From an uncultured Anaeromyxobacteraceae bacterium (GTDB lineage: Bacteria; Myxococcota_A; UBA9042; DTJE01), in contig CAYYCO010000002.1 in assembly GCA_964470365.1 (NCBI GenBank), forward strand, positions 1,173 through 65,172: a stretch of DNA of 64,000 bases, in the 5' to 3' direction. The notes below the pieces were generated by a model. The model ran no database searches, was not told where the DNA came from, and saw only the letters and a program-made list of their open reading frames with translations. The translations under genes were made by a program, and so were the position numbers. Shown here piece by piece: positions 3,396 through 22,967 of this stretch. The first letter of the stretch is position 1, and each line of letters starts with the position of its first letter.

Positions 3396-3524
3396 GATAC
3401 TTTCATTTTTCGAAAGTTTCAAACATTCATGGCACCCGGGAAGCCGCGCAGTTGCGCAATGATGGGGGACTCAAGGCCGCTTTCATGCAACGCCGCGGGT
3501 GCCGACCGACGGGGCGCGCCACCA

Positions 3525-6865: not shown

Positions 6866-6948
6866 GACGACTTACCTCTATGCGGGCGTTCGGCGAAGGT
6901 CATTCTATGTAAAACTGTTTGGTTAATCCAATCGATGATCCGTGGCCT

Positions 6949-9288
6949 TCACGGACTTGACCACAACGCCTTCTCGCCGCTCATGCCCCCGTCAATCCGC
7001 TGTATGGGATACAAGCCGATCCGATCAGGGCTTCCGCCTGTCGCCAAATGGACGTGGTCCCTGATCAATTCCCATGCGTCGCCCCAGGGCATGAGCCTGT
7101 TCTGGTAATTCAAGCGATATTCCAGCGGTTCAATACTGTGATCCGCAAGCAGGAAGATATGCTTGAATCTGGACAGGTGACGCCGCTGCAATTCCAGCTG
7201 CTCCCGACAGGCAACCAGGTCGGCGGCGGGCGGTCTTGCGGTCGAATCGTTATCCGTAATCGCAATATTCGAGTACTTGCTGGTATTGAATCTGTCCACC
7301 AGGAGATTCTGCGCGAATTCAATACTCGTGCTGACGGGACATTGCGCGGGCCAGAGCTTTTCCACGGGGTAGACGGGGCTTTTCCCGATGATGGCGACAT
7401 ACGGCCAGTCAGCCTGATCCTGTCGATGATTAAATGCAATCACGAGGGAATCCGGAGGCGGATCGAAAGTCGAGACGCTCTTGAAGACCTCGGCAATCGG
7501 CCCCAAGCGGATTCCCGCATACTGGACCCAGCCGAAAACCAGATAGAAAGCCAGAAGGGCCAGGGCCCAGCGGTGGTTCCGGGGTCGCGCAATCCATTCG
7601 CGTATATAGGGGGCGCTGATAATCGCCATTGGAACGTACAGCATGAGCGCATAGCGCCAGAAATTCACGCCCACGGGGCTCAAGGCATTCGAGTATATGA
7701 GCAGGCAGACGATAACGATGAGCTGGTAAGCCCTGGCACGCGGCACCTGCGGATCCTTGAGGGATTTGACGAAAGCCAGCTTCTGCGGAAGAAAAGGCGG
7801 CAGGATGAGTACCGTTGCCAGGAACCATATCGGCAATTTCAGGTACCAGTACGAAACCGTGTCCCCGCCTTTGTTGGCAACCTTGCGCAGGAACGCGCCG
7901 ACCAGCGTGTCGAGATTCCCGGAAAATAACAGAATGAGCATGGCCGCCACGGCCCCCCAGAGGCCGACAATGGCGAAGGCCCGCCAACGCACCCTCCTGC
8001 GCTCGACCCCGTAGTGGCAATATGTCGCCATAAAGGCGACATAGAGTGGCGGCAGGATCATGTAGTCTTTCTTGAGCGCGACGCCCAGCGCCAGCATGAA
8101 CGCAATGGCGACGGAGGCCGCGAACTGCAGCGGCAGGCCCTTGGGCACGGCGTACACGGCCAGCAGCAGGGCCAGATAAAAAACCGGCGTGGCCAGCTGT
8201 TCCTGCACCAGGCTGCCGGCCTGTCCCGTAGTCACGGGCGACAGCAGCACGATGGCGGCGGCAATCAACGCGATGGCCCGTCTGCCATACAGCTTGAAGG
8301 CCAGCAGAAAGGCCAGCACCGGCAACAGCGCCCCCAAAGCGCGACCAGGCAGCAACAGCGCCCCGAAATGATCGCCGAACAACTGCATGGATATATGCAG
8401 CAAGCCGAAAAAGGCCCCGTCATGCTGTCCGTGCCTTGTCCAGACAAGCTGCTGCAACAGCCATGACTTTGAGTGCACGAAAAACAGCGGCGCCGCAAAC
8501 CGGCTGAGCACGCTGAACAACGCAAGCGGCGCATAATAAATGTACGCCCGGACCGGCAGAAGAAACCAGCCGAACACAAGCAGCACAACCAGACAGATGG
8601 TACCGCTGATCAGCCCGAAGCCCCACGGCACATCGGCCATGGGCAAGGCAGGAATCAAGGGTGCGTAGGGGTATTTCGACACGTCGGGGGCCTGCGGCGG
8701 CCCGTCCGGCGACGGGGGCTCCATCTGTTGCGTATCCGCCTGCGCGGGTCCGGATTCGGTCGGCAGCTTTTCATCGTCACGGGCGCTGGTTCTGACCCAC
8801 AATGCCGCCAGCCGTTCGGCCTTGTCGCCCTGAAGAAACCACGATCGCCAGGCATCCACCCCGGCAATGGATACTGCGTTGGACGAAATGCCGCCCGCAC
8901 CATCGGAAAGGCAGATCAGCAGACTCTCATTGCCGAGCACCCGACATTCGCCGGCATCCGGCGGCGCCTGCCCCGCATGGCAGATCGCGAACGAGGGCTT
9001 TTCGGACGGTCCGGTGTCCGTCGTGGTCAGCGTCAGCAAATACTTGTCGAAGGCGATGCGCACATCGACGCTGGCAAATGGCAGGCCGGTGAAGTCGGTC
9101 GGGATCAACAGGTCGGCAGCCGGCCTTTCGGCGGAGCCCGGCACGATGTAGCGGGCATCATCGTCACCCGTGTCGGGCATGCCGTTTGCAGGGCTGGCGC
9201 CGAGCAGGAACAAGCCGGTGAACACGGTCGCGACAATCACCGGTATCGTTGGGTCACGCGCAGGACGCATCGTCGTTGGCCCCGTCAT
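6949..9288 (-). CDS. Large polytopic membrane protein, GT-C-type glycosyltransferase-like (ArnT/PMT-like); family tentative
   Basis: 779 aa. N-terminal signal/exported domain, roughly 11-13 TM helices, C-terminal ~250 aa soluble domain. 4 bp overlap with the upstream rSAM gene. Confidence 0.45.
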   Translation of the reverse strand: MTGPTTMRPARDPTIPVIVATVFTGLFLLGASPANGMPDTGDDDARYIVPGSAERPAADLLIPTDFTGLPFASVDVRIAFDKYLLTLTTTDTGPSEKPSFAICHAGQAPPDAGECRVLGNESLLICLSDGAGGISSNAVSIAGVDAWRSWFLQGDKAERLAALWVRTSARDDEKLPTESGPAQADTQQMEPPSPDGPPQAPDVSKYPYAPLIPALPMADVPWGFGLISGTICLVVLLVFGWFLLPVRAYIYYAPLALFSVLSRFAAPLFFVHSKSWLLQQLVWTRHGQHDGAFFGLLHISMQLFGDHFGALLLPGRALGALLPVLAFLLAFKLYGRRAIALIAAAIVLLSPVTTGQAGSLVQEQLATPVFYLALLLAVYAVPKGLPLQFAASVAIAFMLALGVALKKDYMILPPLYVAFMATYCHYGVERRRVRWRAFAIVGLWGAVAAMLILLFSGNLDTLVGAFLRKVANKGGDTVSYWYLKLPIWFLATVLILPPFLPQKLAFVKSLKDPQVPRARAYQLIVIVCLLIYSNALSPVGVNFWRYALMLYVPMAIISAPYIREWIARPRNHRWALALLAFYLVFGWVQYAGIRLGPIAEVFKSVSTFDPPPDSLVIAFNHRQDQADWPYVAIIGKSPVYPVEKLWPAQCPVSTSIEFAQNLLVDRFNTSKYSNIAITDNDSTARPPAADLVACREQLELQRRHLSRFKHIFLLADHSIEPLEYRLNYQNRLMPWGDAWELIRDHVHLATGGSPDRIGLYPIQRIDGGMSGEKALWSSP

Positions 9289-10283
9289 CTGCCATTAAAC
9301 AATTTCTGACGCACCACATTCGCCACAGCAGAAGGGTTCAGCGCATAAAAAAGGTTGAATTCCAAACGGTTGGCGCACCAGCAATCCGCACAGGTAACTT
9401 TGCCGATCGAATCGAAGGCCGCCTGCAGCCCGACTTCGGCAGCATTCATTCCCGCTCTTGGCACACGACACCGACCACACGGGAAGACATTGCCGAGCGC
9501 GTCAATCCTGCAGGAAACCAGTCCCCCGGCACATTTGATTTCCGTCGGATCCGGCCACCGCCGCAAATGCCGCAGGCCGGCAGGCGAATTGATGATAATC
9601 CGCCTGGCATCCGAACGTTTGCGCGCAATCAATTCATCGATGGCGCGGGTGTACGCCGGTCTTGACGGGGAGAGCGAGTTGTCCAGACCGGAACCGAGCT
9701 GCAGGTGAACGGAAGGCTGAAAACCAACGGGAAGGCGGAGTTCGGAGCAGAGAGTGACCACTTCGCCGATGCGTTCGGCGTTCAATGAATTGATGGTGGC
9801 CGATGCAACGACGTGCAGGCCGCGAGCCCTGGCGGCGTCAATCGCCGAGATCACCTTGTCAAACGTGCTCCTGTGACGAATCCGGTCGTGAATATCGGCC
9901 AGCCCCTCCAGAGACACCGCGATCTGCGACAGCCCGACGATTTCGTTCAGCCGTTCCCCGAGCAGTATTCCGTTGGTGTTCAGCTTTACCAGCATGTCAT
10001 GGCCGCTCGCACGCCTGACGATTGCCGGCAGGTCCTCGCGCAGGAGCGGCTCGCCCCCGGTCAGACTGACTGCGATCGTGCCGCAGGCACGCATCTGGTC
10101 GATCAGATTCAGACACTGTTCCGTGCCCAGTTCGTCGGGAATGCGTTGCCATATGCTGCAGGACGGGCATTGCTCGTTGCAGCGTCCGGTAATGGCCCAC
10201 CCGACAATCAGAGGCCTGCGCACAGGGAGGATTTTCGAGCCCATCAGAGGCAGGGCCCTAATGGCCTTTTCAATCTTTTTCAT
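9285..10283 (-). CDS. Radical SAM enzyme with C-terminal SPASM domain (paralog B)
   Basis: CNEQCPSC (CxxxCxxC), GGEPLL, and C-terminal CAGG...C...PCGRC...CADCWC cysteine cluster. Track start is GTG at 10349. First ATG at 10283 gives an N-terminus the same length as paralog A. Confidence 0.85.
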   Translation of the reverse strand: MKKIEKAIRALPLMGSKILPVRRPLIVGWAITGRCNEQCPSCSIWQRIPDELGTEQCLNLIDQMRACGTIAVSLTGGEPLLREDLPAIVRRASGHDMLVKLNTNGILLGERLNEIVGLSQIAVSLEGLADIHDRIRHRSTFDKVISAIDAARARGLHVVASATINSLNAERIGEVVTLCSELRLPVGFQPSVHLQLGSGLDNSLSPSRPAYTRAIDELIARKRSDARRIIINSPAGLRHLRRWPDPTEIKCAGGLVSCRIDALGNVFPCGRCRVPRAGMNAAEVGLQAAFDSIGKVTCADCWCANRLEFNLFYALNPSAVANVVRQKLFNGR

Positions 10284-11277
10284 GACAATCGTTTTTTGCG
10301 GCTGCGGCTGTGCCGTTCCTGCATAACACTTTACTACCCAACGACGCACGAAACAATGAAACCGCGCCGACGGAGGCCGGCAGCAGGCGCATTATCAAGG
10401 TGACCGCCAGGGCTGACGCGAAGATGGTCGACGCCGGCCCGTCCGAGGCAAAAATCAGAAGAGCCGCGCCCTCCCTGGTTCCAAGCCCGGCAAAAGAAAG
10501 CGGCAGTGCACCGACGACGTGCAACAACAGCAGCTTGTCGAAGAAAACGCCCCCGAGCACCGGTGCAAAAAACGCCACCAGCACCGCGAAGCGCAGGAAT
10601 TCATCAATGTAAACGAGCGCCATCAGGCTGACCCTCGCGGGCACCCTCATGCCGGCGATCGCGGCCAGCGCCCCCTTCAACTGATGAATCAGTTTCCACT
10701 TTTCCGGCTCGCCCTGCCCCTGCTTGACGGCCCCGGGCATTTTGATCAGGCATAGCGCAAGGCATGTCGACAGCATGGTCAACGCGATAAGGGTCCACTG
10801 GAGCGGGGGATTGCCGTAACCGAGCAGCCCCATGCCCAGCGGCAGCAGGCCCAGCAGAGCCAGGAGTTTGTCCAGGCCCCACAGGCTGATTGACTGCCCG
10901 TTGTTCAGTCCCAGGCGCCTGCCCACGACGTAGTACGCGCCGGGATCGCCCAGGAAAAATGGAACGAACGCCTTGATAAACAGCAACAGTGCCCGATTAT
11001 CAATGAGGCGGCCGAAGCCCACAGGCACGCCGATTGCGTTCAGCAGCAGTCGATGGCGCAGGGCCCGCAGGATGAAGTTCGCCAGCACGCTGGCCAGTAT
11101 CGCGAATGCCAGCGCACGCAGGTCAACTGCCATGAGGACCGAAAATTCATCCCGCTCCCCGGCGTGAATCAGATACGCGATGCACAGGCCATACAGAACC
11201 GGCACCGGGGCCAGCTTCAAAATGAATCGGGCCCGGGGCGTCAGTCGACCGAATGAATGTTCGAGAGAAACCGGCAT
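10270..11277 (-). CDS. Flippase-like / lysylphosphatidylglycerol-synthase TM-domain family membrane protein (UPF0104)
   Basis: About 8 TM helices with a ...FAGLGTREGA... motif typical of LPG_synthase_TM. Track start is GTG at 11310. First ATG at 11277. Confidence 0.55.
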   Translation of the reverse strand: MPVSLEHSFGRLTPRARFILKLAPVPVLYGLCIAYLIHAGERDEFSVLMAVDLRALAFAILASVLANFILRALRHRLLLNAIGVPVGFGRLIDNRALLLFIKAFVPFFLGDPGAYYVVGRRLGLNNGQSISLWGLDKLLALLGLLPLGMGLLGYGNPPLQWTLIALTMLSTCLALCLIKMPGAVKQGQGEPEKWKLIHQLKGALAAIAGMRVPARVSLMALVYIDEFLRFAVLVAFFAPVLGGVFFDKLLLLHVVGALPLSFAGLGTREGAALLIFASDGPASTIFASALAVTLIMRLLPASVGAVSLFRASLGSKVLCRNGTAAAAKNDCHEKD

Positions 11278-11321
11278 GCCCACCCCGCCGGCCACGCAAG
11301 GCCGCGTCACAGAGCCATATG

Positions 11322-12752
11322 TTATTTCTTTCGCTTTCTGGTATCCGAATGGACGGCATAGACCAGCATCCGAAGGGCGGTTCGAGCGCCACGCCGGAAT
11401 TCTTCCTTCGAACGGACGCGGGAGAGCGCCCGCAGGACATACGTGGGCCGATAATAGAACCAGTAGTAGGCCATCTTAGTCCACAGTTCGATGCTGCCCT
11501 CGCTCATCTCCGTCCACGGGTTCGGCAGGCGCGCCTCCTCCGCGTTGCCAAGAATGTAATCCCGCCAGAAATCCTTTCCGGTGCGTTTGATCATTTCCGA
11601 ATCGAGATCCGTGCAGGGCTTGGCGATGGTGCGGGAGAACTGGGCGTAATCCAGATCGAGACCGGTGGCATAATCGATGGTACGCAGAAGGCTCATCGGA
11701 GTCTCGCCCGGTACACCGGTCATGAAGAATCCCAGAGCCTTGATTCCGGCCTGGCGCGTCGCACGCAGCGCCAATGAAACCTTCTTCGCATCGACCTTCT
11801 TGTTCATCAGTTTCAGATGGTCTTCCGACGAGGTTTCAATTCCGAAATATATCTTTCGGCAGCCGGCACGGGCCATCAGGTCAAGCAGATCCGGATCCAC
11901 GGCATCTATGCGCGATCGACAGGACCATTCCAGATCCATCTGCCGTTCGATAAGCCCGTTGCAGAGATCGGTGATGCGGCGCCGATTTAGAGGGAAATCG
12001 GCGTCAAAGAAGTCGATTTCCCGCACGCCGTACTTGTCGTAACACTCCTGGATCTCTTCCAGAACGCTCCCGACGCTGCGGGCGTAATACGGGATCTTCG
12101 CGATGGCACAGAATGAGCACTTGTAGGGACACCCCTTGCTGGTAAGCATGATGGTGAAATTGCGGCGCTGGGACGTGATGGAATAATAACGATCATTGGG
12201 CAGCAGATGGCGCGCCGGGAACGGAAGTTCGTCGAATTCGGACTCCGTCGCGGGCGGCGAGATCACGATGCCGCCTTCCCGGCGATAGCAGACGCCCGGA
12301 ATGCCGTCAGGCTCCGTCCCTTTTTCAAGGGCATCGATCAGAAGGGGCAGAGAGTGCAGTGCCTCGCCGGAAATCGCGTAATCAATCGCCTCGTGGGTCA
12401 TCGTTTCCCGCGGATAGAGGGACAGGTTGATTCCGCCGGCCAGAATCGTCGCGCCAAGCGCCTGACGAATCGCCGCGGCATAGGCAAGGGTGTCGTGAAA
12501 CATGTAGGTCGAAAAATAGAAACCCACGTATTTCGGGGCAAATTCGGACAGGGCGGCGATCGTTTCCGGGATGCCGAGCTTCAGTGCATTTGCGTCCAGC
12601 AGAATTACTTCGTGGCCGGCCTTTTCCGCAATCGCCGCCGCATAGGCCAGGTTGATCGGGGGAAAAACCCCGAAATCCTTGTCCACTACCAGGATGTTTT
12701 CTGAAAAACGCTTGTGTTCATAAGGGGCAAAAACAAAAGCGATGCGAGCCAT
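11322..12752 (-). CDS. B12-binding-domain radical SAM enzyme (class B rSAM)
   Basis: N-terminal Rossmann-like B12-binding region (ARIAFVFAPY...VILLDANAL), then KGCPYKCSFC radical-SAM motif and the TIM-barrel core (IYFGIETSS). Confidence 0.85.
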   Translation of the reverse strand: MARIAFVFAPYEHKRFSENILVVDKDFGVFPPINLAYAAAIAEKAGHEVILLDANALKLGIPETIAALSEFAPKYVGFYFSTYMFHDTLAYAAAIRQALGATILAGGINLSLYPRETMTHEAIDYAISGEALHSLPLLIDALEKGTEPDGIPGVCYRREGGIVISPPATESEFDELPFPARHLLPNDRYYSITSQRRNFTIMLTSKGCPYKCSFCAIAKIPYYARSVGSVLEEIQECYDKYGVREIDFFDADFPLNRRRITDLCNGLIERQMDLEWSCRSRIDAVDPDLLDLMARAGCRKIYFGIETSSEDHLKLMNKKVDAKKVSLALRATRQAGIKALGFFMTGVPGETPMSLLRTIDYATGLDLDYAQFSRTIAKPCTDLDSEMIKRTGKDFWRDYILGNAEEARLPNPWTEMSEGSIELWTKMAYYWFYYRPTYVLRALSRVRSKEEFRRGARTALRMLVYAVHSDTRKRKK

Positions 12753-12755
12753 GCG

Positions 12756-13745
12756 TTAATTCACCAGCCGCACAACGTCCGCCAGAGGCCGCGGATCAAG
12801 TGAATACAGCATGTTAAGTTCGAGCGACCCGCAGAAACCGCATCCGCTGCACGATACGGCCGGAAGTTTCCCGATTGCCTCGCCAATGCTGCTGGTACGG
12901 ATGTTCGGCAGCGGCGTCGCGTACGAGACGCGATCGCAGGGCAGAATCGTTCCGTCCGAATCGATCATTATAAATACTTTGCCGGCCGAACATTCCAGGG
13001 GAGGATAGTTGGGCCAGTCGGAGATGTATTTCAGTTCGGCCAGGGAATTTCGGATGCTCCGGTTGCCGCCGCGTTTCTGATCGGTCAGCCAGGCAACAGC
13101 GTCACGCATATCAATGGCATCCGGGGCCAGTTCCCCGACGTTTTCCACCCCACGATATAAATCTTTTACCGGTTGAAATGCCACCACGCACCCAAACCCT
13201 TCAGCAATTTCGAGGATTTGCGGCAAGTGATGAACATTGAAGCGCGTTATCGTGGTCGAAAAACTGATCTTCTTGAGCCGCCGCGAGGCCAGTTCTGCGG
13301 CTTCAATTGCGGCCGCGAAAGCACCCTTCCTGCCACGCACCAGGTCATGAATTTCTTCCGGCCCGTCCAGGCTGATCTTCAGCAGTTCCAGGCCGGCGAG
13401 CTGGTCAATCCGTTTGTGGAGCATGTAACCGCTGCTGTTCATGCTCGGCGCCAGCCCCAATTCGGCCGCGCAGGACACCAGTTCACCGATATCCTTTCGA
13501 AGCAACGGTTCGCCGCCGGAAAATGAAACGTGAACGGTGCCCAGCGATTTCAATTCTGCCAGGCCCCGCTTGATAATCTCGGTCGGAAGTTCCGAAGTTG
13601 CCGAATTTCCCCAGATGTTGCAGTAGGCGCAACGATTGATACAGCGATCCAGCAGATTCCACCGCACCGCCACCGGAACGGGCCGCCCGCCAAGACGAAC
13701 CTTCAGCAGGCAAAGACTGGCCTTGAGTTGTCGCGTGACTCTCAT
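12756..13745 (-). CDS. Radical SAM enzyme with C-terminal SPASM domain (paralog A)
   Basis: CINRCAYC, GGEPLL, and C-terminal ECSAG...PCDRV...CSGCGFCGS. An ATG also exists at 13871. The 13745 start makes its N-terminus co-linear with paralog B. Confidence 0.85.
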   Translation of the reverse strand: MRVTRQLKASLCLLKVRLGGRPVPVAVRWNLLDRCINRCAYCNIWGNSATSELPTEIIKRGLAELKSLGTVHVSFSGGEPLLRKDIGELVSCAAELGLAPSMNSSGYMLHKRIDQLAGLELLKISLDGPEEIHDLVRGRKGAFAAAIEAAELASRRLKKISFSTTITRFNVHHLPQILEIAEGFGCVVAFQPVKDLYRGVENVGELAPDAIDMRDAVAWLTDQKRGGNRSIRNSLAELKYISDWPNYPPLECSAGKVFIMIDSDGTILPCDRVSYATPLPNIRTSSIGEAIGKLPAVSCSGCGFCGSLELNMLYSLDPRPLADVVRLVN

Positions 13746-14059
13746 TACCGAATCCCGATACCGCAGCCGCCCGGCTTGATGAAGGGATGAAGAAACCCCC
13801 ACAACCCCAATTCGGCAAAGTATGCCAATACTGACCGGGTTGTCAAACCGGTCTTCTCCCGATATTCCCATCCGTCGGGGCGGTTCGGTCGACGCGGGTC
13901 GCGGGCGCGGGCTGCTGCAGGTGCTGTGAACGCTCCGGATGTGTCAGGCAAATCTCCGGTTCCGGTTTGACTTCGCCGGACTCCATGAAATAAACTTTTG
14001 TCCGGCAATTCGTCTGATTGTGACAACCGATTGCTCTGACTCATTTTCTGGCAATAAAG
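13746..14059. promoter_or_regulatory. Divergent intergenic region (probable bidirectional promoter/operator) between the rSAM operon and the nitrogenase-like operon
   Basis: 314 bp non-coding (188 bp if the rSAM starts at 13871). Contains an imperfect inverted repeat ggcaattcg...ccgattgc near 14000-14035. No sigma-70 consensus could be assigned confidently. Confidence 0.35.
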
Positions 14060-14878
14060 ATGCAGCGCGAACGGGTGGCGGTGTACGGCAAGGGAGGGGG
14101 TGGCAAGTCTTTCATTTCCGCCAACCTTTCCGTTGAATTCTCGCGCCATGGTTACAGCACCCTGCAGATCGGCTGCGACCCCAAACACGATTCGACCAGG
14201 TCACTCACTTCCGGCAAATCCATCAGGACCGCGCTTTCGTACATGGAAGAAACCGGCCGGCTTGTCGGCAACACGGAATTCGACGTTGTCCAGGGACTTG
14301 AAGGTGTTGCGTGCGTCGAAACCGGCGGGCCGGAACCGGGTGTCGGCTGCGCGGGTCGCGGGATCGTCAGCGCTTTCCAGTTTTTCAGGTCCAGGAACCT
14401 CCTGGACAGATACGACGCCGTGGTGCTTGACGTCCTGGGCGACGTCGTCTGCGGCGGATTCGCCGTGCCGATGCAGCGCGGATTCGCGGAAAAGATCGTC
14501 ATCGTCGTTTCCAATGCCCTCATGTCCATGTATGCGGCGAACAACATCGCACGTGCCCTGGTCCGGTACCGCCGAAACGGGGTATTTCTGGCCGGCATAA
14601 TCGCGAACAATCTTCGCGACGACGACGACGAACAGGAAATTCGACGTTTCGCCGAAGGGTTGAGGGCGCCGGTCATCGCCGCGTTCCGCCATGACCTTCT
14701 GGTCCGCAGGGCCGAAAGGATGGCGCTTCCGCTGCTGGTGGCATTTCCCGACTGTTCCACGGCCGGGGCCTTCCGCGGCCTGGCCGATGCGATAATCAAC
14801 GCCGGCCGGGTCGATGACTGCCCGACGCCATACAGCGAGGAAGAACTGGACTGTTTCTTCAGGAGCCTGCACGAATGA
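14060..14878 (+). CDS. NifH/BchL/CfbC-family ATPase (nitrogenase-like Fe-protein homolog)
   Basis: YGKGGGGKS P-loop, CDPKHDSTR switch I, GGPEPGVGCAGRG (Cys97 equivalent) and VLGDVVCGGFAVP (Cys132 equivalent, switch II). Confidence 0.9.
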   Translation: MQRERVAVYGKGGGGKSFISANLSVEFSRHGYSTLQIGCDPKHDSTRSLTSGKSIRTALSYMEETGRLVGNTEFDVVQGLEGVACVETGGPEPGVGCAGRGIVSAFQFFRSRNLLDRYDAVVLDVLGDVVCGGFAVPMQRGFAEKIVIVVSNALMSMYAANNIARALVRYRRNGVFLAGIIANNLRDDDDEQEIRRFAEGLRAPVIAAFRHDLLVRRAERMALPLLVAFPDCSTAGAFRGLADAIINAGRVDDCPTPYSEEELDCFFRSLHE

Positions 14879-17031
14879 AGCAGTCGCAGCATCGTGCGAT
14901 CCTTGATGAATTTTCGTTCATGGCGCGCCGTCTCGGGTTCAGAATGATGGTCCCCCGTCCCGACGGGTCCCTGTTCATTCTTGTCGAACCGGGGCGCCGG
15001 CTCCTCTGGGTTCCCGAGGCGCGGGCCGGGGATATCGTGGTCAAGGGCATCCCCGGGGGGTTTTCCGGCGACGGGATCGCGCCCGCGGATCTCGAAAACA
15101 CGACACTTCGCCTGCGCGAATCGCTCGAGAGAAAAGAACTGCCGCTTCTGACGTGGCGCACGAATACCGATGTCCCGATTGAACTGTCCAGGTGGCTGGT
15201 CGATTTCCACCTCAGTCCTTTCCTTCAGGAAGAAGTGAGCTCCTGGGGTGAATTCAGGCTGCAGAAAGTCGAGGAACTCGGGGTCGACTCGGTTGCGGTG
15301 ACGTTCCAGGCCCGCGATGCCGTTGTCGTGTGCGAGGTCCGCGCGCTTCGGCTGGTGGATGCGCTAGAACTTTCGCAGTGGCATGTCGTGAATCCGCTGG
15401 CCTGGCGCGTCACTTCCGACACGCGGCTTGATGTCGAGGGCTACAGGGCGCGGCCGGAATACTATCTGTCATATGCCCTTGTTCGAACCTTCGCCCCGGG
15501 CCAGGTGACAAGGGCATTCATTCAGCCGCCAGGCGGGGCCGCGGCCGGCGAGGCCGGCGGTGGAAAAGGATGCACGATCGCTGCCGGCGACGGCTCCGGG
15601 AAAGAGGCCCGCGACACCGTCGCACAGGGATGTTCCTGCGCTTTGCCGCCCGATCCCCGGCAGGAAGTCCCGATCGACAGATTCTTCATGCCTCCGGATT
15701 TCAACCTTCTGGGCGCAGGCGACGTCTTCAGCACCCTTAACAATGCCGGGCCTGAATTCGCGCTGCTTTTCGTTGCGCCGCGCGCCTGCCTGAAGATGCC
15801 GATGTCGGCCAGCTTCAACGCGACAACCTATCTGTGGCACCGGTACGCCAGCCTGCCCATGCAGGTTTCCCGCGCGGTCGCCGCAGTCACCACGATTGAC
15901 GAAATCGACCTGGTGATGAGCATGGAGCGCCAGGTCGTGCAGGTGCTGGACAAGTCGCTGGAGGATCCCGGGGTCAGGATCCTGGTGGTGTTCAGTTGCT
16001 GCGTTGCGGATTTTGTCGGACTTGACGTCGAAGGTATCGTCAGGGAGCGCCTTGGGGATTCGCAAATGCCGCTGATTCTCTGGGGGGCAAGCCCCTGGGG
16101 TCTCGCTTCGGTCGAGGCTTTCTGGCGCCAGGTGTTTGCCATAGCACCACGTCCCCGTTCCGGATTCAAGCCTTCAGGCGTCAACCTTGTCGGGTTCGCG
16201 CCGAATGATTCCCGCATGACGGCGGAACTTGCGCTTGATCTTGGGTCAGCAGGCATCAGGGTGAATTCCACGATGGTGCCGAGCCTTGAATACGACGCTC
16301 TTAACGCGTTCAACAACGCGGAACTCTCCGTGGTTCCGATCGACGACAGCGTCCGCCTGGAACTCGGTTCGGTCCTGGAAGAAACTACATCTCCCCCCGT
16401 TTTGAGGGTTCAAAGACCTTTCGGACTCGATGGAAGCCTGAAGTTCGTCAGGAGCGTGGCATCAACCCTGGGGGTCGCCGAGGCTCCGGGGCTGCTGGAA
16501 AGCGCCGAACGGCACAGGGCCGCCTGGGACGAATACAAAACCCTGGCCTCCGGCTGCACCGTGGCCATCCCTCTCGACATGAGGACGGCTGCCTGCATCA
16601 CCAGACCCGGTGTGCTGTACGGGATCCCGGTGGTGGATCTCATCCGGGAGATGGGTTTCCGTGTCCTGATCATCGTCAGTTACCGCCGTGAAGATGGCGA
16701 AGACGTCCGACAGGTTGTCAGGGAGATCCGCTCCCTATATCCCGAGGGTGTCGATCCCGGCATTGTCATCGAAACGGCGTCGGGCGCCGAAGCGCTTCTC
16801 GATCGACTTGCGGCGGACGACGTTTCGATGGTCATGTCGGAGTTCGCGCCGGACACGCGCGTCACGGAAATGGGAAAATTCAGTTTCGCGCCGCGGCAGC
16901 TTGAGATGGGGCTGGCGGGGGCATTGCGTTCGCAACGGCTGTTGCTGCGGATGGCCCGGTCATCGTCCGTGCTGCGTCGTTTCGACGCCGTCGCCCGGGA
17001 CGCGGTCGGCTTGCCGGGGGAGGTGGTGTAA
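14875..17031 (+). CDS. Nitrogenase component-1-like (NifD/BchN/ChlN-like) subunit with ~235 aa N-terminal extension
   Basis: ATGA overlap with the NifH-like gene. C-terminal ~480 aa carries Oxidored_nitro-like motifs: ...FVAPRACLKM (cf. ChlN GSRTCAH), ILVVFSCCVADFVGLDV (cf. ChlN LVGSCPSEVIKLD, NifD TTCTTGLIGDD) and VNLVGF...AELALDLGSAGIRVN (cf. NLIG...E..LLE.GI.VN). N-terminal 1-235 has no recognisable domain. Confidence 0.7.
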   Translation: MKQSQHRAILDEFSFMARRLGFRMMVPRPDGSLFILVEPGRRLLWVPEARAGDIVVKGIPGGFSGDGIAPADLENTTLRLRESLERKELPLLTWRTNTDVPIELSRWLVDFHLSPFLQEEVSSWGEFRLQKVEELGVDSVAVTFQARDAVVVCEVRALRLVDALELSQWHVVNPLAWRVTSDTRLDVEGYRARPEYYLSYALVRTFAPGQVTRAFIQPPGGAAAGEAGGGKGCTIAAGDGSGKEARDTVAQGCSCALPPDPRQEVPIDRFFMPPDFNLLGAGDVFSTLNNAGPEFALLFVAPRACLKMPMSASFNATTYLWHRYASLPMQVSRAVAAVTTIDEIDLVMSMERQVVQVLDKSLEDPGVRILVVFSCCVADFVGLDVEGIVRERLGDSQMPLILWGASPWGLASVEAFWRQVFAIAPRPRSGFKPSGVNLVGFAPNDSRMTAELALDLGSAGIRVNSTMVPSLEYDALNAFNNAELSVVPIDDSVRLELGSVLEETTSPPVLRVQRPFGLDGSLKFVRSVASTLGVAEAPGLLESAERHRAAWDEYKTLASGCTVAIPLDMRTAACITRPGVLYGIPVVDLIREMGFRVLIIVSYRREDGEDVRQVVREIRSLYPEGVDPGIVIETASGAEALLDRLAADDVSMVMSEFAPDTRVTEMGKFSFAPRQLEMGLAGALRSQRLLLRMARSSSVLRRFDAVARDAVGLPGEVV

Positions 17032-18276
17032 TTGAAAATCGCCCCTTACTTCCTTGACGGCTGCATCCTGACGCTTGCCGGAATGCCCGACCTGGTGTCC
17101 GTTATCGATTCTCCCCTGTGCGAACTCGAGCGGGCCTACACCCTCGATCTCGTCAGCGACGGACACGCGAGCCTTCTTGGCGGCGGCCCTTACGCGAGGG
17201 GCACGAAGCGGCTGTTCACGGTGGACTGGACCCACGGACGCGACGTCAGCGGCGTCGAGCAGAGCCTTGTCGAAAGCATCATGGCCACCGCAGCGATACA
17301 CCCCGACAAACCAATAATGGTCCTCGCCGGTTTTCTGTCGCTGCTGGTGAACACCGACATACCCGGCCTTGTCGCGGATCTGTCCAGCCGTGTCGGCAAC
17401 CCGCTCATCACGGTGAAACAGGATTCTCTGGACGATGACTGGATTGACGGGATTGCTGCCACCCAGGCAGCCGTGCGCGCCGCCATGCCCGTTTCCGGCG
17501 GCGATCCCGGAAGGCCGGTTTTCGAAGGCTACGCTTTCCTTCGACAGAGCGGCGACGAGTGGGGGGACGTGGCGGAACTTGCGGCGTTCGCCAGGTCGGT
17601 CGGCCTGCCGGACCCGATATGGCCTTTTAACGGAATCACGTCTTTTCGAACGCCGTCGCATCCGTCGGCGCCGCGCATCAGGTTCCCGTATGCGCCTGCG
17701 ACCGGGGACGGGAGGGCCGTCGATGTGCCGCTGCCGATCGGACTGGACGACACCGCGCGTTTCATTCGGGTCCTTGCGGACATCGCCGGAAATCCCGCCG
17801 CCGGCGAAGAACTGATTGAACGCGAAACCATGCGCGTGATCAGGATACTCATTCCGCGGATAACGAAGTCCTTCGCGGGCCTGGGCGCTGTCGTGGTGGC
17901 GGACCCGGCGAGGGCCAGGGGGCTGGTGCTGGCGCTTCGCGACCTGGGGATATTCACCCCGCTTGTGATTGCGCTGCGACGATCCGGCATGGGCGAGGAA
18001 GACCTGGCAGCGTGCAGGGGCCCCGGCACCACGGTGATGGTGAATCCGACCCAGCATGACGTGGAAGAAAAGTTCCATGAGGTGGCCTCGAACGGACAGG
18101 CCACCCTGATGATCGGCTCCGGGTTGACGCGGGACGCTGCCCGGAATGCCGGGCTCTCGGTGATCGAGGCGGCATATCCGTGCGTGGCCGAAACCTTTGC
18201 GGCAATGACCCCTCTGATGGGATTCAACGGTTTGCTGCACCTGGCGGATCGCATCGATTCGGCCCTGCTCAGGTGA
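17032..18276 (+). CDS. Nitrogenase component-1-like (NifK/BchB/ChlB-like) subunit
   Basis: TTG start 1 nt after the upstream stop, with GGAGGTG upstream. N-terminus MKIAPYFLDGCILTLAG...VSVIDSPLCELERAY resembles BchB/ChlB MKLAYWMYAGPAHIG...VHAIMHAPLGDDY. Rossmann-like repeats follow. Confidence 0.6.
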   Translation: MKIAPYFLDGCILTLAGMPDLVSVIDSPLCELERAYTLDLVSDGHASLLGGGPYARGTKRLFTVDWTHGRDVSGVEQSLVESIMATAAIHPDKPIMVLAGFLSLLVNTDIPGLVADLSSRVGNPLITVKQDSLDDDWIDGIAATQAAVRAAMPVSGGDPGRPVFEGYAFLRQSGDEWGDVAELAAFARSVGLPDPIWPFNGITSFRTPSHPSAPRIRFPYAPATGDGRAVDVPLPIGLDDTARFIRVLADIAGNPAAGEELIERETMRVIRILIPRITKSFAGLGAVVVADPARARGLVLALRDLGIFTPLVIALRRSGMGEEDLAACRGPGTTVMVNPTQHDVEEKFHEVASNGQATLMIGSGLTRDAARNAGLSVIEAAYPCVAETFAAMTPLMGFNGLLHLADRIDSALLR

Positions 18277-18423
18277 ATGAATCCCGATACCTCCGGCGTT
18301 ACGGCGATATTTCGATAATCCTGCCGCAGGCGGCCTCAATGGAGTCCTGATGGCCTGTCGAAACCACGGACCGAAACTGTGGACTGTCCCGTTGCAACCG
18401 TGACATAATCGAAACACTTTTTC

Positions 18424-19308
18424 ATGGGGGTTATTACCATGACCGTCCGGAAGTGCCAGATTCCGAAGTCACTGTTTTTATTGATGGCGGCAGCTCTGTG
18501 CCTGGGCGCCGGCGGCTGCAAAAAATCCAGCGACACCAAATCAGTCGTCGACAATGCCGCACCCGGAGTTGCCGTCAAGCCGCCTGCCGACAAACCGATG
18601 CCCACCGGACTCCCCGTGGTCGATGAGCCTTCGGACCCGGTCACGCCGCAATCCTCGGATGACAAGCTGGCCCAGCACTTCCGCATCACAATCGACGAAT
18701 TGAAGCAGATCCGGGATACCCATGCCACTTTCCCGGTCCTGGAACTGCCGGCGTGGGCGGCCGAGGCGAAACAGGACAAGGGGCTCCCGAAAAAGAACGC
18801 GGCGATTGCCATGCCGCCTTTCAGGGTCATCACGGCGCAGGAACTGTCGAATGTTGAAACCGTGAAATGGGCCGACATCCTCAATTCCGTAAAGGAAGTC
18901 AGCCAGCGTGCCTTCGCGCTCAAAATCCCCGTATTCACCAAACCGATCGTGTTCCTCGATCTCGTCCCCGACGCCCCGGAGGGACGGGCATCCGCATTCA
19001 TCGGCCTGCCGGTGCCTGACAGCGTCAAGATTCCAAAGGGCCTCCAGACACGCGTCATGAACCAGGGCAAGGCACTTTTCCTGGGCTACAAGGATATCGA
19101 TTCACTGGGAATCTCGTCCGACGCCAAGGAACTGATGAACAAACTGAGCCCCCAGCTGGCGGTCGAAGGGAAATGCGAGGCATCGCTGATGGTCATGATC
19201 GAAGACTGGCCCACGGGGAATCCAGGTCAGCGGGAGGGTGCATCCCCCGCCACCGGCATGGCAAAGCCGACCGACGCCATGAACAGAGTCCTTCTCATCT
19301 GTCGCTGA
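18424..19308 (+). CDS. Hypothetical lipoprotein
   Basis: Signal peptide plus LGAGGC lipobox. No recognisable domain. Confidence 0.6.
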   Translation: MGVITMTVRKCQIPKSLFLLMAAALCLGAGGCKKSSDTKSVVDNAAPGVAVKPPADKPMPTGLPVVDEPSDPVTPQSSDDKLAQHFRITIDELKQIRDTHATFPVLELPAWAAEAKQDKGLPKKNAAIAMPPFRVITAQELSNVETVKWADILNSVKEVSQRAFALKIPVFTKPIVFLDLVPDAPEGRASAFIGLPVPDSVKIPKGLQTRVMNQGKALFLGYKDIDSLGISSDAKELMNKLSPQLAVEGKCEASLMVMIEDWPTGNPGQREGASPATGMAKPTDAMNRVLLICR

Positions 19309-19318
19309 AGGCACTCCG

Positions 19319-20869
19319 ATGAAATTTCTGCGAATGGCGCCGATCCTGCTGCCTGCAATTCTCGCGGCACAGGCCGCGTGTTCCGATGTCGCCGATTCCG
19401 ACGCCGACGACGGGCCTTGCGTCCCGCGGACATGCGACTACGAAAACCGCGAATGCGGCGCGATGTCGAACGGCTGCGGGGGCATGATCTCCTGCGGAAC
19501 CTGCGATCCCGGCTTTACGTGCCGTTTCGGGGCGTGCCGTGAAATCTGCGTGCCGGACTGCACCGGCAGGTGCGGGGGCAGCGACGGGTGCGACGGCTCC
19601 TGCCCCGACCGCTGCAGCCTCACAGGCCAGACCTGCGACGCAAACACCCGTGAATGCATCGGCGAATGCGTGCCCCGTTCATGCGTTTCGCTCGGTTACG
19701 AATGCGGTACATGGGACGACGGGTGCGGCGGCAGCGCCCGGTGCGGCGACTGCCTGCCTGGCGCGCCATGCGATGACGGACGCTGCGGCGCAATCGCGTC
19801 GGAGGGCCTGGGCGTCAGGTGCGAATCCGACCCGGCGGTCTGCCGGGCCCCCTTCCCCGACTGCATCAAGCTGTCCGGCGACCCTGCATTCTGTTCCCGC
19901 GAATGCCTGTCCGACGGCCAGTGCGGCATCGCGGGAACTGACACCCAGGGCAATCCGGTCCCGAACTGCTGCGTCCCGATAGACGGCGTGGGGCGGTGCG
20001 TGTCCGCCGATTTGATGAGCTGGATGTGCGAAGACCCGACGGACGCCTCGTGGTGTACCATCGACGAAACGTGCCTGCCCTCGCCGCTCGGCGCGTGCAT
20101 ATTCTGTTTCCCGGTCGGGCAGCTCACGGTCGGCGACGCATGTTCCGGGTTCAATTCGTGCGACAAGGGCCTTGCCTGCGTGAAACCGGTCGGTGACAAC
20201 AAGGCGGCCTGCCACGAAATCTGCGACCCGGCCGACATGGACGCGTGCATCGCAGACGGCCAGGATCGGCACTGCGTGGCCATGTCGGAACTCGGGGCGT
20301 GGGGCGTCTGCGTCGACGGTCCGCCCCCGTGCGACCCGTCGAAACTGGGGGCCACCTGCCCGACGGCCTGGAACTGCGTTCCCGACGCCGCCTGTTCATC
20401 GTTCGCATGCTCAAAAACAGGCGGCAAGGCGATCGGGGAACCGTGTTCCGAATACGATGCCTGCGCCCGGGGCGGCTACTGCGCCGACGGAACCTGTCGC
20501 GAAATGTGTTCCGTTTCGGACGGCTGCCCTGATTCATATGAATGCGTCCAGGGGTGCGGAACAAAAATCCGGTACTGCAACCCGGTCGGCGGAAACGACT
20601 GCAACCCCCTGCTGCCGAAATGGCTCTGTCTGGCCGGTCAGACCTGCGTGCCGGACAGCCTCTCAAACTGCGCGGCCGGCACATGCGTGGTGGCGGGAAA
20701 GACGGGCGGCGGCGGCGGCTGCGACGCGCATTCCGACTGCGTGTACGGCAGCATCTGTTACAACGATGCGTGCAGGCCGATCTGTACGCTGTCAAGGACC
20801 TGCGAACCGCCTTCGTACTGCTTTTACATATGCGGGGGTTCCGATCTGGGCGTCTGCATGACCGGCTAA
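19319..20869 (+). CDS. Secreted cysteine-rich repeat protein (myxobacterial Cys-rich repeat type)
   Basis: Lipobox AAQAAC. About 10 tandem ~40 aa modules of the form C.P..C...G.CG...DGCGG...CG.C. Confidence 0.75.
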   Translation: MKFLRMAPILLPAILAAQAACSDVADSDADDGPCVPRTCDYENRECGAMSNGCGGMISCGTCDPGFTCRFGACREICVPDCTGRCGGSDGCDGSCPDRCSLTGQTCDANTRECIGECVPRSCVSLGYECGTWDDGCGGSARCGDCLPGAPCDDGRCGAIASEGLGVRCESDPAVCRAPFPDCIKLSGDPAFCSRECLSDGQCGIAGTDTQGNPVPNCCVPIDGVGRCVSADLMSWMCEDPTDASWCTIDETCLPSPLGACIFCFPVGQLTVGDACSGFNSCDKGLACVKPVGDNKAACHEICDPADMDACIADGQDRHCVAMSELGAWGVCVDGPPPCDPSKLGATCPTAWNCVPDAACSSFACSKTGGKAIGEPCSEYDACARGGYCADGTCREMCSVSDGCPDSYECVQGCGTKIRYCNPVGGNDCNPLLPKWLCLAGQTCVPDSLSNCAAGTCVVAGKTGGGGGCDAHSDCVYGSICYNDACRPICTLSRTCEPPSYCFYICGGSDLGVCMTG

Positions 20870-22203: not shown

Positions 22204-22335
22204 CTATCCGCTGCTCCGGGAAAGTCCCGGGCGATTCCGGCGCCCGGGGCCGTGAAGTTTACCCCCGTACGCACAAAAAAGAAGGGGCGGACGCCGGACG
22301 ATCGGGGATATGATGCCGGCCCGGGGGGCTTACGA

Positions 22336-22809
22336 ATGATCAGGACGCTTCACGACACTGTGGACGTTTTTTTCGCCAGGGCGGTCGCCGCTGCCCCGGA
22401 ACAGTTCGCCTGCGGGCCCGGGTGTGTCGAATGCTGCCGCGTCGATCTGTCGGTCTTCCAGGTCGAGGCCGCCCTGATCGCAAAGGCGTTCGCCGCACTT
22501 CCCGACGACATCAGGGCCGCCGCCGCCGAACGCGCCGCCACGGGCATCCACTGCTGCATGATCGACCCGGCCGACGGCCGATGCATCGTCTACGACGCGC
22601 GCCCCGTGATCTGCCGCAGCCACGGTTTGACGGTGCTCGTCGAAGGCGCCGCCGACCACTGCCCGCTTAACTACACGACCGCCCCGGCCGCCAGGGAAAA
22701 CGTGCTAGATCTTGAAAAACTGAACCCCGCACTCGTGGCCGTCAACGCGGCCGCGGGTCATGGTCCGGACCGGGTGCGCATCGCCGACATCGCGACAAAA
22801 AACCGCTGA
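22336..22809 (+). CDS. YkgJ/UPF0153 family Fe-S/zinc cluster protein (CxxCxxCC)
   Basis: CGPGCVECC motif plus downstream CC...C...C. The track ORF begins at 22114 and overlaps the MATE gene. Internal ATG at 22336 chosen. Confidence 0.6.
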   Translation: MIRTLHDTVDVFFARAVAAAPEQFACGPGCVECCRVDLSVFQVEAALIAKAFAALPDDIRAAAAERAATGIHCCMIDPADGRCIVYDARPVICRSHGLTVLVEGAADHCPLNYTTAPAARENVLDLEKLNPALVAVNAAAGHGPDRVRIADIATKNR

Positions 22810-22894
22810 CGAACCCACCGGGCGATCACCATCCGGCACAAACCGCTTGACAATCCCGCGCCTTTCGCAAATAATCTGTCCGCTTTTTGGCTGT

Positions 22895-22967
22895 GGGCCC
22901 ATAGCTCAATTGGTAGAGCAGCGGACTCTTAATCCGGAGGTTGGCAGTTCGATTCTGCCTGGGCTCA
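22895..22967 (+). tRNA. tRNA-Lys (anticodon CTT)
   Basis: Acceptor GGGCCCA/TGGGCTC, D-arm GCTCAATTGGTAGAGC, anticodon loop CTCTTAA (CTT), T-arm GGCAG-TTCGATT-CTGCC, discriminator A. CCA is not encoded. Confidence 0.85.

What the first reader, a model, noticed from the sequence alone, without database searches (positions are those of the whole stretch)
14875..15580. Unprecedented ~235 aa N-terminal extension on the NifD/BchN-like subunit
Motifs resembling component-1 only begin around residue 290 (FVAPRACLKM, LVVFSCCVADFVGLD). Residues 1-235 form a separate domain with no motif I recognise (MKQSQHRAILDEFSF...HVVNPLAWRV...). It is fused in-frame and translationally coupled to the NifH-like gene through an ATGA overlap. 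Known NifD, BchN, CfbD and MarD proteins lack such a domain. The extension could be a substrate-binding or membrane-targeting module.
Basis: seen in the sequence. Interest (0 to 1): 0.6.

Follow-up and report, generated by a model that had tools for sequence, protein, structure and literature searches.

The report
New domain on nitrogenase-like reductase subunit
The catalytic subunit of an uncharacterised nitrogenase-like reductase really does carry an extra, well-folded ~215-residue N-terminal domain that matches no known family or solved structure; the domain is conserved in a rare group of (apparently myxobacterial) enzymes and is also found fused to radical-SAM enzymes, so it most likely recruits the pathway's still unknown substrate or partner.

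Summary
ORF 14875-17031 (718 aa) overlaps the NifH-like gene by ATGA, and only residues ~266-718 are nitrogenase component-1-like (PF00148). Residues 1-215 show the same coding signature as the neighbouring genes. An independent assembly recovers the same ORF, so it is not an artefact.

It is not unique to this sequence. An exhaustive HMMER search of 1.84 billion representative proteins found 16 homologues of the N-domain, always at the N-terminus. Thirteen share the ~700-aa domain+PF00148 architecture, one is a shorter version missing the Cys-bearing half of PF00148, one is fused to a HemN/ChuW-like radical-SAM enzyme, and one to an unrelated enzyme beside a B12-radical-SAM gene. All 11 related loci examined keep the fusion, nine with a NifH-like and a K-like gene and often with radical-SAM genes.

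AlphaFold (17 sequences) gives a confident model (pLDDT 92.6). It has no significant Foldseek match in PDB or BFVD and no Pfam, NCBIfam or PDB-sequence hit.

The system fits the uncharacterised "Group VI" nitrogenase-like enzymes of Meheust et al. 2020. Neither that paper nor a 2026 review mentions this domain.

Best reading, inferred: a flexibly tethered substrate- or partner-recruitment module. Membrane targeting is unsupported.

The parts
14060..14878 (+). NifH-like ATPase/reductase subunit (272 aa)
   Evidence: Pfam Fer4_NifH E 3.9e-76. Best NCBIfam models are CfbC (256 bits) and NifH (248 bits), both far below their cut-offs. The Walker A motif and both [4Fe-4S] cysteines (Cys97 and Cys132 equivalents) are invariant in 5 orthologues. 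The closest PDB chains are 9fmg_D at 198 bits, NifH at ~190 bits and BchL at 147 bits.
14875..15519 (+). Novel N-terminal domain of the D-like subunit (aa 1-215)
   Evidence: No Pfam, NCBIfam or PDB-sequence hit. There are 16 homologues among 1.84 billion representative proteins, and the domain is always N-terminal. AlphaFold2 with 17 sequences gives pLDDT 92.6 and pTM 0.89. There is no Foldseek match in PDB or BFVD: best E 0.03 and 0.0025, TM 0.26 or lower. Invariant residues are D30, G31, L113 and F144. Near-invariant residues are P27, P101, L117, W124, G125, P174, Y197, A201 and R204. No Cys or His is conserved.
15520..15669 (+). Variable low-complexity linker (aa 216-265)
   Evidence: The segment is Gly/Ala/Pro-rich, and its length and sequence are not conserved in the 14-member alignment. 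pLDDT falls at the end of the domain model.
15670..17031 (+). Nitrogenase component-1-like catalytic domain of the D-like subunit (aa 266-718)
   Evidence: PF00148 E 7.8e-23. Only C305 and C376 are invariant cysteines. C376 aligns with the 'TCVxxLIGDD' cysteine of NifE and of other component-1 chains in PDB, which is NifD Cys154 by my own knowledge of the family. No conserved Cys/His pair for a FeMo-co-type cluster is present.
17032..18276 (+). K-like partner subunit (414 aa, TTG start directly after the D stop)
   Evidence: PF00148 E 3.1e-28. The N-terminus aligns with 5 orthologues, which supports the TTG start. There is one invariant cysteine, C30, in the motif DSPxCE.
12756..13871 (-). Radical SAM/SPASM enzyme, divergently transcribed from the NifH-like gene
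   Evidence: Pfam Radical_SAM plus SPASM. Best NCBIfam hits are PTO1314, PqqE, NirJ and AhbC, all below cut-off.
11322..12752 (-). B12-binding radical SAM enzyme
   Evidence: Pfam B12-binding plus Radical_SAM. Best NCBIfam hits are HpnJ, ApyD, BzaD, PhpK and BchE, all below cut-off.
10270..11310 (-). Membrane protein with LPG_synthase_TM (flippase-like) domain; association with the system uncertain
   Evidence: Pfam PF03706 E 1.6e-12. It was not seen in the other loci.
9285..10349 (-). Second radical SAM enzyme of the divergent operon
   Evidence: Pfam Radical_SAM E 2.8e-21. NCBIfam gives generic SPASM-type hits below cut-off.

Best explanation
The 718-aa protein is the D (catalytic) subunit of an ATP-dependent nitrogenase-like reductase of the uncharacterised 'Group VI' type (NflH, NflD, NflK). 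Shown: its first ~215 residues are a genuine, conserved, independently folding alpha+beta domain of a previously undescribed family. A ~50-residue flexible linker joins it to the component-1 domain. Inferred: the NifH-like dimer hydrolyses ATP and passes electrons to a simple [4Fe-4S]-type cluster at the D/K interface. That cluster would be held by D-C305, D-C376 and K-C30, plus probably an acidic residue, and it would reduce an unknown organic substrate made or further modified by the neighbouring radical-SAM enzymes. Inferred, most likely: the N-domain is a tethered recruitment module. It would bind the pathway's common substrate, or its carrier or partner protein, and present it to whichever catalytic domain it is fused to. 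This would explain why the same domain heads a nitrogenase-like D subunit, a HemN/ChuW-like radical-SAM enzyme and a third unrelated enzyme.
For: The domain is real and conserved. Coding periodicity matches the neighbouring genes. An independent assembly is identical. There are 16 homologues at 29-37 % identity, always N-terminal, 13 of them with the same ~700-aa architecture. The domain HMM hits the D subunit in all 11 related loci examined, including L007 and the second copy in L012, neither of which was used to build it. The AlphaFold model is confident.

The linker varies in length and composition.

The domain is modular. P0005 is the N-domain plus a HemN/ChuW-like radical-SAM domain, flanked by two more radical-SAM genes. 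P0015 is the N-domain plus an unrelated C-terminal part, directly downstream of a B12-radical-SAM gene. In L012 a paralogous D-like protein carries a radical-SAM domain at its N-terminus instead.

Radical-SAM genes flank the H-D-K set in the window (three), in L006 (two) and in L012 (six), and lie within a few genes of it in L003 and L014.

The reductase looks functional. The NifH-like motifs are invariant. Two invariant Cys occur in D and one in K.

The domain has no conserved Cys or His, so it is not a metal-cluster site.
Confidence: 0.45

Rival explanations
1. The N-domain is a protein-protein docking or scaffolding module. It would assemble the nitrogenase-like reductase with radical-SAM partners or into a higher-order complex, and it would not bind substrate.
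For: Weak structural neighbours in two libraries are tandem alpha+beta interaction modules: Knl1/Nsl1 RWD, ARPC2, RnlA and an RNaseLS-like protein. The radical-SAM::D fusion in L012 shows that D subunits and radical-SAM enzymes can work as one polypeptide. The flexible linker is typical of docking domains.
Against: All structural matches are non-significant (TM 0.26 or lower). The domain is itself fused to a radical-SAM enzyme in P0005, so it cannot simply be a 'radical-SAM docking' domain. Several loci have no radical-SAM neighbour.
Confidence: 0.25
2. The N-domain is a regulatory sensor that binds a small-molecule effector and gates the activity of whichever catalytic domain follows it.
For: It is N-terminal, separately folded and linker-tethered. 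It is fused to unrelated catalytic domains, as many sensor domains are. Conserved Trp, Tyr, Arg and Asp residues could line a pocket.
Against: It matches no known sensor family such as GAF, PAS, ACT or CBS. Its distribution is restricted to this one pathway context rather than spread across many enzyme types.
Confidence: 0.12
3. The N-domain targets the enzyme to the membrane.
For: A membrane protein (LPG_synthase_TM) and a MatE exporter lie in the neighbourhood.
Against: There is no hydrophobic or amphipathic segment: the maximum 19-aa Kyte-Doolittle mean in the domain is 1.25, GRAVY is -0.1 and pI is 6.0. The predicted fold is a compact soluble alpha+beta domain. The membrane genes are not conserved in the other loci.
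Confidence: 0.03
4. The extension is an artefact: a missed frameshift or stop fusing two genes, or an over-extended start codon in a GC-rich genome.
For: Long spurious ORFs are common at 62 % GC. For example, a 352-aa antisense ORF overlaps the region.
Against: The coding periodicity is in the right frame. An AGGAG sits upstream of the ATGA overlap. An independent assembly is identical. The same fused architecture occurs in more than 13 independent contigs from ENA, JGI, NCBI and Logan. The N-termini align from residue ~1.
Confidence: 0.01

Closest known systems
Group VI nitrogenase-like (NFL) systems, NflHDK (Meheust et al. 2020, doi 10.1101/765248; reviewed in PMC13474568, section 7)
   Same: The NifH-like subunit has intact ATP and [4Fe-4S] motifs. 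The D- and K-like subunits are very divergent, keep only some of the P-cluster cysteines and have no FeMo-co ligands. No NifB, NifE or NifN gene is nearby. The genes cluster with many radical-SAM genes, including B12-binding and HemN-type ones, and some genomes hold several paralogous copies. The reported taxa include aquatic Myxococcales and soda-lake 'CSSed' MAGs. Relatives found here are labelled 'Myxococcales bacterium' and 'Deltaproteobacteria bacterium CSSed165cm_581'.
   Different: Neither paper mentions an N-terminal domain on NflD. Phylogenetic placement of this NifH-like protein inside the Group VI clade could not be tested, because no reference sequences were available. It is unknown whether the Elusimicrobia members carry the domain. 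Only 17 clusters in 1.84 billion representatives do, which suggests that most do not.
DPOR (BchL/BchN/BchB), dark-operative protochlorophyllide reductase
   Same: It is an ATP-dependent three-gene H/D/K-type reductase. It uses a single inter-subunit [4Fe-4S] cluster with mixed Cys/Asp ligation rather than a P-cluster plus FeMo-co.
   Different: BchN has three cluster cysteines and no N-terminal domain. Here D has two invariant Cys and K has one. The NCBIfam BchN model scores 31.5 bits against a cut-off of 420. No chlorophyll genes are present.
[quoted passage not shown]
   Same: The NifH-like subunit scores best against the CfbC model (255.7 bits). It is a tetrapyrrole-modifying NFL enzyme with a simple [4Fe-4S] cluster.
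   Different: CfbD is homomeric with no K subunit and has no N-terminal domain. The CfbD model scores 11 bits against a cut-off of 268, and the CfbC score is below its 402-bit cut-off.
RiPP recognition elements (PqqD-like RRE domains) fused to radical-SAM and other maturases
   Same: This is a comparison of how it may work. An RRE is a small N-terminal domain promiscuously fused to different enzyme classes of one pathway, where it recruits the shared substrate.
   Different: An RRE is a ~90-aa winged helix-turn-helix. The present domain is ~215 aa with a different secondary-structure order and has no Pfam or PDB match. No precursor peptide gene was found.

Membership tests
Nitrogenase component-1 superfamily (Pfam PF00148) | Significant match to the Oxidored_nitro profile above the gathering score | tested here: met
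   D-like: 81.4 bits against a cut-off of 28.6, aa 317-612. K-like: 99.2 bits. The N-terminal 235 aa lie outside the match.
Group VI NFL (Meheust 2020) | NifH-like subunit with the GxGxxG/Walker A motif and both cluster cysteines (Cys97 and Cys132, A. vinelandii numbering) | tested here: met
   YGKGGxGKS, GVGCAG and GDVVCGGF are invariant in 5 orthologues.
Group VI NFL (Meheust 2020) | D/K-like subunits highly divergent from NifD/NifK, lacking some P-cluster cysteines (at most 4 of 6) and the FeMo-co ligands Cys275 and His442 | tested here: met
   phmmer of the D-like protein against PDB finds nothing at E<=1. Invariant Cys are D C305 and C376 and K C30, which is 3 of 6. The third K cysteine position holds Leu or Ser. 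No invariant His is present.
Group VI NFL (Meheust 2020) | Co-location with radical-SAM genes (including B12-binding and HemN types) and absence of NifB, NifE and NifN | tested here: met
   Three radical-SAM genes, one of them B12-binding, are divergently adjacent. The window holds no further PF00148-type ORF. Relatives are flanked by 2-6 radical-SAM genes in L006 and L012.
Group VI NFL (Meheust 2020) | NifH-like sequence falls inside the Group VI clade in a NifH phylogeny | not testable with these tools
   No Group VI reference sequences could be retrieved. HMM and PDB scores only show that it is closer to CfbC, MarH and NifH (198-256 bits) than to BchL and BchX (147-177 bits).
DPOR BchN | Three conserved cluster cysteines in N, and an equivalog-level match to TIGR01279 | tested here: not met
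   Only two invariant Cys are present. The score is 31.5 bits against a cut-off of 419.95.
NifD / MarD-type (P-cluster plus complex cofactor) | Three P-cluster Cys in D, three in K, and Cys/His cofactor ligands | tested here: not met
   See the cysteine counts. The NifD models score 16 bits or less against cut-offs above 480.
CfbD | Homomeric catalytic subunit without a K partner, and a match to TIGR03282 | tested here: not met
   A K-like gene follows directly and is conserved in all loci examined. The score is 11.2 bits against a cut-off of 268.
Any described protein domain family, for the N-domain (Pfam-A, NCBIfam, PDB) | Significant sequence or fold match | tested here: not met

The most novel reading that the evidence does not exclude
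The N-domain is a new-fold substrate-recognition element. It would mark a whole undiscovered pathway in which several nitrogenase-like reductases and radical-SAM enzymes act in turn on one tethered substrate, such as a modified tetrapyrrole-type cofactor or a peptide- or carrier-bound intermediate. In that case the domain would be the first handle for fishing out the unknown substrate of Group VI nitrogenase-like enzymes.
Probability: 0.3. Interest if true: 0.75.

Novelty: new variant of a known kind. Interest (0 to 1): 0.55.

Why it matters
The 2026 review states that Group VI nitrogenase-like enzymes have no characterised member and that gene context has given little help with their substrate (PMC13474568). 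The domain found here is soluble, confidently modelled and easy to express. It is shared by the reductase's catalytic subunit, a HemN-like radical-SAM enzyme and a third enzyme. That gives a concrete experimental entry point: purify the domain and identify what it binds. It also adds an undescribed domain family, possibly a new fold, to the nitrogenase superfamily. Together with the radical-SAM::D and NifH::D fusions seen in a relative, it shows that these reductases are built modularly with N-terminal accessory domains.

Tried and rejected
- **Word-indexed protein searches.** Searches with the N-domain, the full protein and the 14-member family alignment found nothing beyond the protein itself and one unrelated 410-aa PF00148 protein. 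Only the exhaustive HMMER search revealed the family.
- **Single-sequence AlphaFold.** The full-length model was useless, with pLDDT 36.
- **Genome and metagenome scans.**
  - Two family alignments were too variable for the genome scan.
  - The single-protein genome scan found no relative.
  - A subset alignment found one MAG with two loci.
  - The metagenome scan found one fragment.
- **Internal duplication.** An hhalign comparison of the two halves of the domain gave probability 0.3 %, so the idea was rejected.
- **Weak WCX similarity.** The 'P-x-x-DGSLL' hairpin matches WCX regions of WYL proteins at E 0.15-0.3 over 28 residues. I treated this as chance.
- **Additional copies of the domain.** None was found in the 64-kb window.
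- **Precursor-peptide gene.** No convincing candidate lies in the 189-bp divergent promoter region or after the K gene.
- **Neighbouring unknown proteins.** The window's 692-aa and 779-aa proteins are unrelated to the ~660-aa accessory protein of the divergent subfamily.
- **Organism of the window.** It could not be established. The protein is on an NCBI contig of 155,654 bp, but the record could not be retrieved.
Full report
**1. The observation**

The window holds a three-gene set on the + strand:
- a NifH-like gene at 14060-14878 (272 aa);
- a 718-aa ORF at 14875-17031, whose ATG overlaps the preceding TGA as ATGA, with an AGGAG 9 nt upstream;
- a 414-aa ORF at 17032-18276, which starts with TTG directly after the stop.

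Pfam finds Fer4_NifH in the first protein (E 3.9e-76). It finds Oxidored_nitro (PF00148) in the other two. In the 718-aa protein the match covers only aa 317-612. Residues 1-235 match nothing in Pfam or NCBIfam.

GC content at the three codon positions of the N-terminal part is 0.69/0.46/0.72. This equals the rest of the gene and its neighbours, so the region is translated in this frame. An independent Logan assembly of run SRR10083296 covers window 14435-22930 at 99.99 % identity. It contains the same uninterrupted ORF with a single substitution, G457E.

**2. Is the extension unique?**

Word-indexed searches of 5.8 billion clusters found nothing for the N-terminal 280 aa. For the full protein they found only the protein itself and one distant 410-aa PF00148 protein.

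An exhaustive HMMER search of 1.84 billion 50 %-identity representatives with aa 1-245 returned 16 further proteins. E-values ranged from 1e-25 to 6e-4 and identity from 29 to 37 %. The matched stretch always lies at the N-terminus.
- Thirteen are 669-719 aa and align with the window protein over their whole length, including the PF00148 part.
- P0008 (586 aa) is a shorter version that lacks the cysteine-bearing first half of the PF00148 domain.
- P0005 (750 aa) joins the domain to a HemN/ChuW/HutW-like radical-SAM domain. Two more radical-SAM genes and a methyltransferase flank it.
- P0015 (512 aa) joins the domain to an unannotated C-terminal part and lies directly downstream of a B12-binding radical-SAM gene.

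An HMM built from 17 N-domains detects the domain in the D-like gene of every related locus fetched: L003, L006, L007, L008, L009, L011, L012 (two copies), L014 and L016. L007 and the second L012 copy were not in the training set. The HMM detects the domain only once in the 64-kb window. Orthologous clusters therefore keep the fusion, and no stand-alone version was seen.

**3. Anatomy of the domain**

In the alignment D30, G31, L113 and F144 are invariant. P27, P101, L117, W124, G125, P174, Y197, A201 and R204 are nearly so. No Cys or His is conserved. After about residue 215 the sequences diverge into a Gly/Ala/Pro-rich linker of variable length, roughly aa 216-265 here.

AlphaFold2 with the 17-sequence alignment gives mean pLDDT 92.6 and pTM 0.89, with all five models at 88.7 or higher. 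The model is an alpha+beta domain. Its order is helix, four strands, long helix, then a six- to seven-strand antiparallel sheet, closed by a C-terminal helix.

Foldseek finds no match at E<=0.001 in 350,542 PDB chains (best E 0.03, TM below 0.2) or in BFVD (best E 0.0025, TM 0.25). A profile search of PDB sequences gives only a 28-residue similarity at E 0.15 to WCX regions of WYL proteins, which I regard as chance. None of the 17 members has a meaningful Pfam hit.

**4. The enzyme it belongs to**

The NifH-like proteins keep the Walker A motif and both cluster cysteines. Their best PDB relatives are a nitrogenase-like iron protein (9fmg_D, 198 bits) and NifH (~190 bits), ahead of BchL (147 bits).

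The D-like catalytic domain has only two invariant cysteines, C305 and C376. C376 aligns with the 'TCVxxLIGDD' cysteine of NifE and of other component-1 chains. By my own knowledge of the family this is the NifD Cys154 position. C305 lies 71 residues upstream, the spacing expected for the Cys88 position; this is an inference.

Where NifD and BchN carry their first cysteine, 22 residues before C305, 12 of 14 members have Asp or Glu, and the most divergent member has Cys. This too is an inference.

The K-like proteins have one invariant cysteine, C30 in the motif DSPxCE. They have Leu or Ser at the third cysteine position.

The complex thus has three of the six P-cluster cysteines and no cofactor ligands. 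That points to a simple [4Fe-4S]-type bridging cluster, as in DPOR or CfbCD. Model scores exclude membership of BchN, CfbD, NifD or NifE at equivalog level.

**5. Context**

In the window the set is divergently adjacent to a radical-SAM/SPASM gene, a B12-radical-SAM gene, an LPG_synthase_TM membrane protein and a second radical-SAM gene. Two large unknown proteins and a DUF2804 protein follow. Downstream lie a lipoprotein-like ORF, a Cys-rich secreted protein and a MatE exporter.

Neighbourhoods of the related loci:

| Locus | H-D-K arrangement | Radical-SAM genes near the set |
|---|---|---|
| L006 | H-D-K | radical-SAM/SPASM plus one radical-SAM gene directly after K |
| L003 | H-D-K | radical-SAM genes within a few genes |
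| L014 | H-D-K | one radical-SAM gene within a few genes |
| L007 | H-D-K | none adjacent |
| L008 | H-D-K | none adjacent |
| L009 | D-K only, no H | none adjacent |
| L011 | H-D-K | none adjacent |
| L016 (9.6-kb contig) | D-K-H | none on the contig |
| L012/L013 | four nitrogenase-like systems in 22 kb | six |

The L012/L013 locus comes from a lineage whose cluster includes NMC71299.1, labelled 'Myxococcales bacterium'. Its four systems comprise two with N-domain D subunits, one 983-aa radical-SAM::D-like fusion and one NifH::D-like fusion.

Two MAGs carry two paralogous loci each. The only taxon labels obtained are 'Myxococcales bacterium' and 'Deltaproteobacteria bacterium CSSed165cm_581', a soda-lake sediment MAG. 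The rest of the window encodes ordinary Gram-negative housekeeping proteins: BamA, TamB, FadL, RecA and GDH.

**6. Comparison with what is known**

Meheust et al. 2020 defined 'Group VI' nitrogenase paralogues. Their features are an intact NifH-like subunit, very divergent NifD/K-like subunits lacking some P-cluster cysteines, and no NifB, NifE or NifN. Many radical-SAM genes lie adjacent, including B12-binding and HemN_C types, and some genomes hold several copies. The group occurs in Elusimicrobia, two Gracilibacteria and 14 aquatic Myxococcales, including a 'CSSed' soda-lake MAG and Enhygromyxa salina SWB007.

A 2026 Chemical Reviews article states that Group VI has no characterised member and probably uses [4Fe-4S]-type clusters.

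The present system meets every feature I could test. The phylogenetic criterion could not be tested for lack of reference sequences. Neither paper mentions an N-terminal domain on NflD, and further literature searches found nothing. Database entries for family members are named 'hypothetical protein'.

**7. How it most likely works**

Shown: the domain is real, conserved, globular and linker-tethered. It contains no cluster-binding residues. It occurs at the N-terminus of three different catalytic scaffolds, two of them in radical-SAM-rich loci and the third directly downstream of a B12-radical-SAM gene.

Inferred: NflH2 delivers electrons ATP-dependently to a D/K bridging cluster, which reduces an unknown organic substrate that radical-SAM enzymes also act on. 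The three fusion types (N-domain::D, radical-SAM::D and N-domain::radical-SAM) argue that the three modules serve one pathway. They also argue that the N-domain supplies something both catalysts need.

The most economical reading is recruitment of a common substrate, or of its carrier or partner. This is analogous in logic, not in fold, to RiPP recognition elements. My estimates are:
- substrate or partner recruitment, about 0.45;
- a pure protein-docking or scaffold role, about 0.25;
- a regulatory sensor, about 0.12;
- membrane targeting, about 0.03;
- artefact, about 0.01.

The remainder is unassigned. The HemN/ChuW-like fusion, and the NirJ/AhbC/AhbD/BchE-like (sub-threshold) similarities of the neighbouring radical-SAM enzymes, are compatible with the tetrapyrrole hypothesis of Meheust et al. 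They do not establish it, because the same enzymes score equally with peptide-modifying SPASM families.

**8. Verdict**

The finding is real and was described largely correctly. The extension is not unique to this sequence. It is the hallmark of a rare subfamily, probably myxobacterial, of the already reported but uncharacterised Group VI-type nitrogenase-like reductases. The domain itself appears undescribed and has no recognisable relatives in sequence or solved structure. I rate it as a new variant of a known kind and of moderate interest (0.55). It gives a concrete experimental handle on an enzyme class with no known substrate, but its own function remains inferential.

Noticed in passing
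L012:3230-6181 (+) and L012:21838-22088 (+, runs off the locus); same in L013: In a relative's 22-kb locus holding four nitrogenase-like systems, one D-like paralogue is a 983-aa fusion with an N-terminal radical-SAM domain. Another gene is a NifH-like::D-like fusion of at least 784 aa. I know of no characterised nitrogenase-like enzyme with either fusion.
   Followed up: partly
L016:1846-3828 (+) and L012:18632-20641 (-): An unannotated protein of ~660 aa is conserved next to the most divergent N-domain D subfamily. The two copies share 34 % identity over ~650 aa (blastp 4e-77), and neither has a Pfam or NCBIfam hit.
   Followed up: partly
window 15721-15723 (D283 of the D-like protein): The position where NifD and BchN carry their first cluster cysteine, 22 aa before C305, is Asp or Glu in 12 of 14 family members and Cys in the most divergent one. 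This may be a carboxylate cluster ligand like Asp36 of BchB. It is inference only.
   Followed up: no
window 1879-3422 (-): An AbiEii toxin and AbiEi antitoxin pair (type IV toxin-antitoxin / abortive infection) lies upstream of the cluster.
   Followed up: no
window 18424-20869 (+): Directly downstream of the K-like gene lie a lipoprotein-like 294-aa ORF and a 516-aa very cysteine-rich protein with a signal-peptide-like N-terminus. Neither has a family hit. They are present in the independent assembly L001 but not in the other loci.
   Followed up: no
window 4787-9288 (-): Two large proteins of 692 and 779 aa with clear coding signature have no Pfam or NCBIfam hit. They extend the radical-SAM operon, so they may belong to the same pathway.
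   Followed up: no
P0008 (586 aa, JGI metagenome): This family member keeps the N-domain, with a duplicated 'DGS' hairpin insertion also seen in P0014. It lacks the cysteine-bearing first half of the PF00148 domain, so it is either a degenerate paralogue or an assembly chimera.
   Followed up: no
L009:10001-13383: One genome (2.37-Mb contig, ERZ21869602) has a second D-long/K pair with no adjacent NifH-like gene. Its other locus, L008, has the full H-D-K set, which suggests that one NifH-like protein serves two D/K pairs.
   Followed up: no
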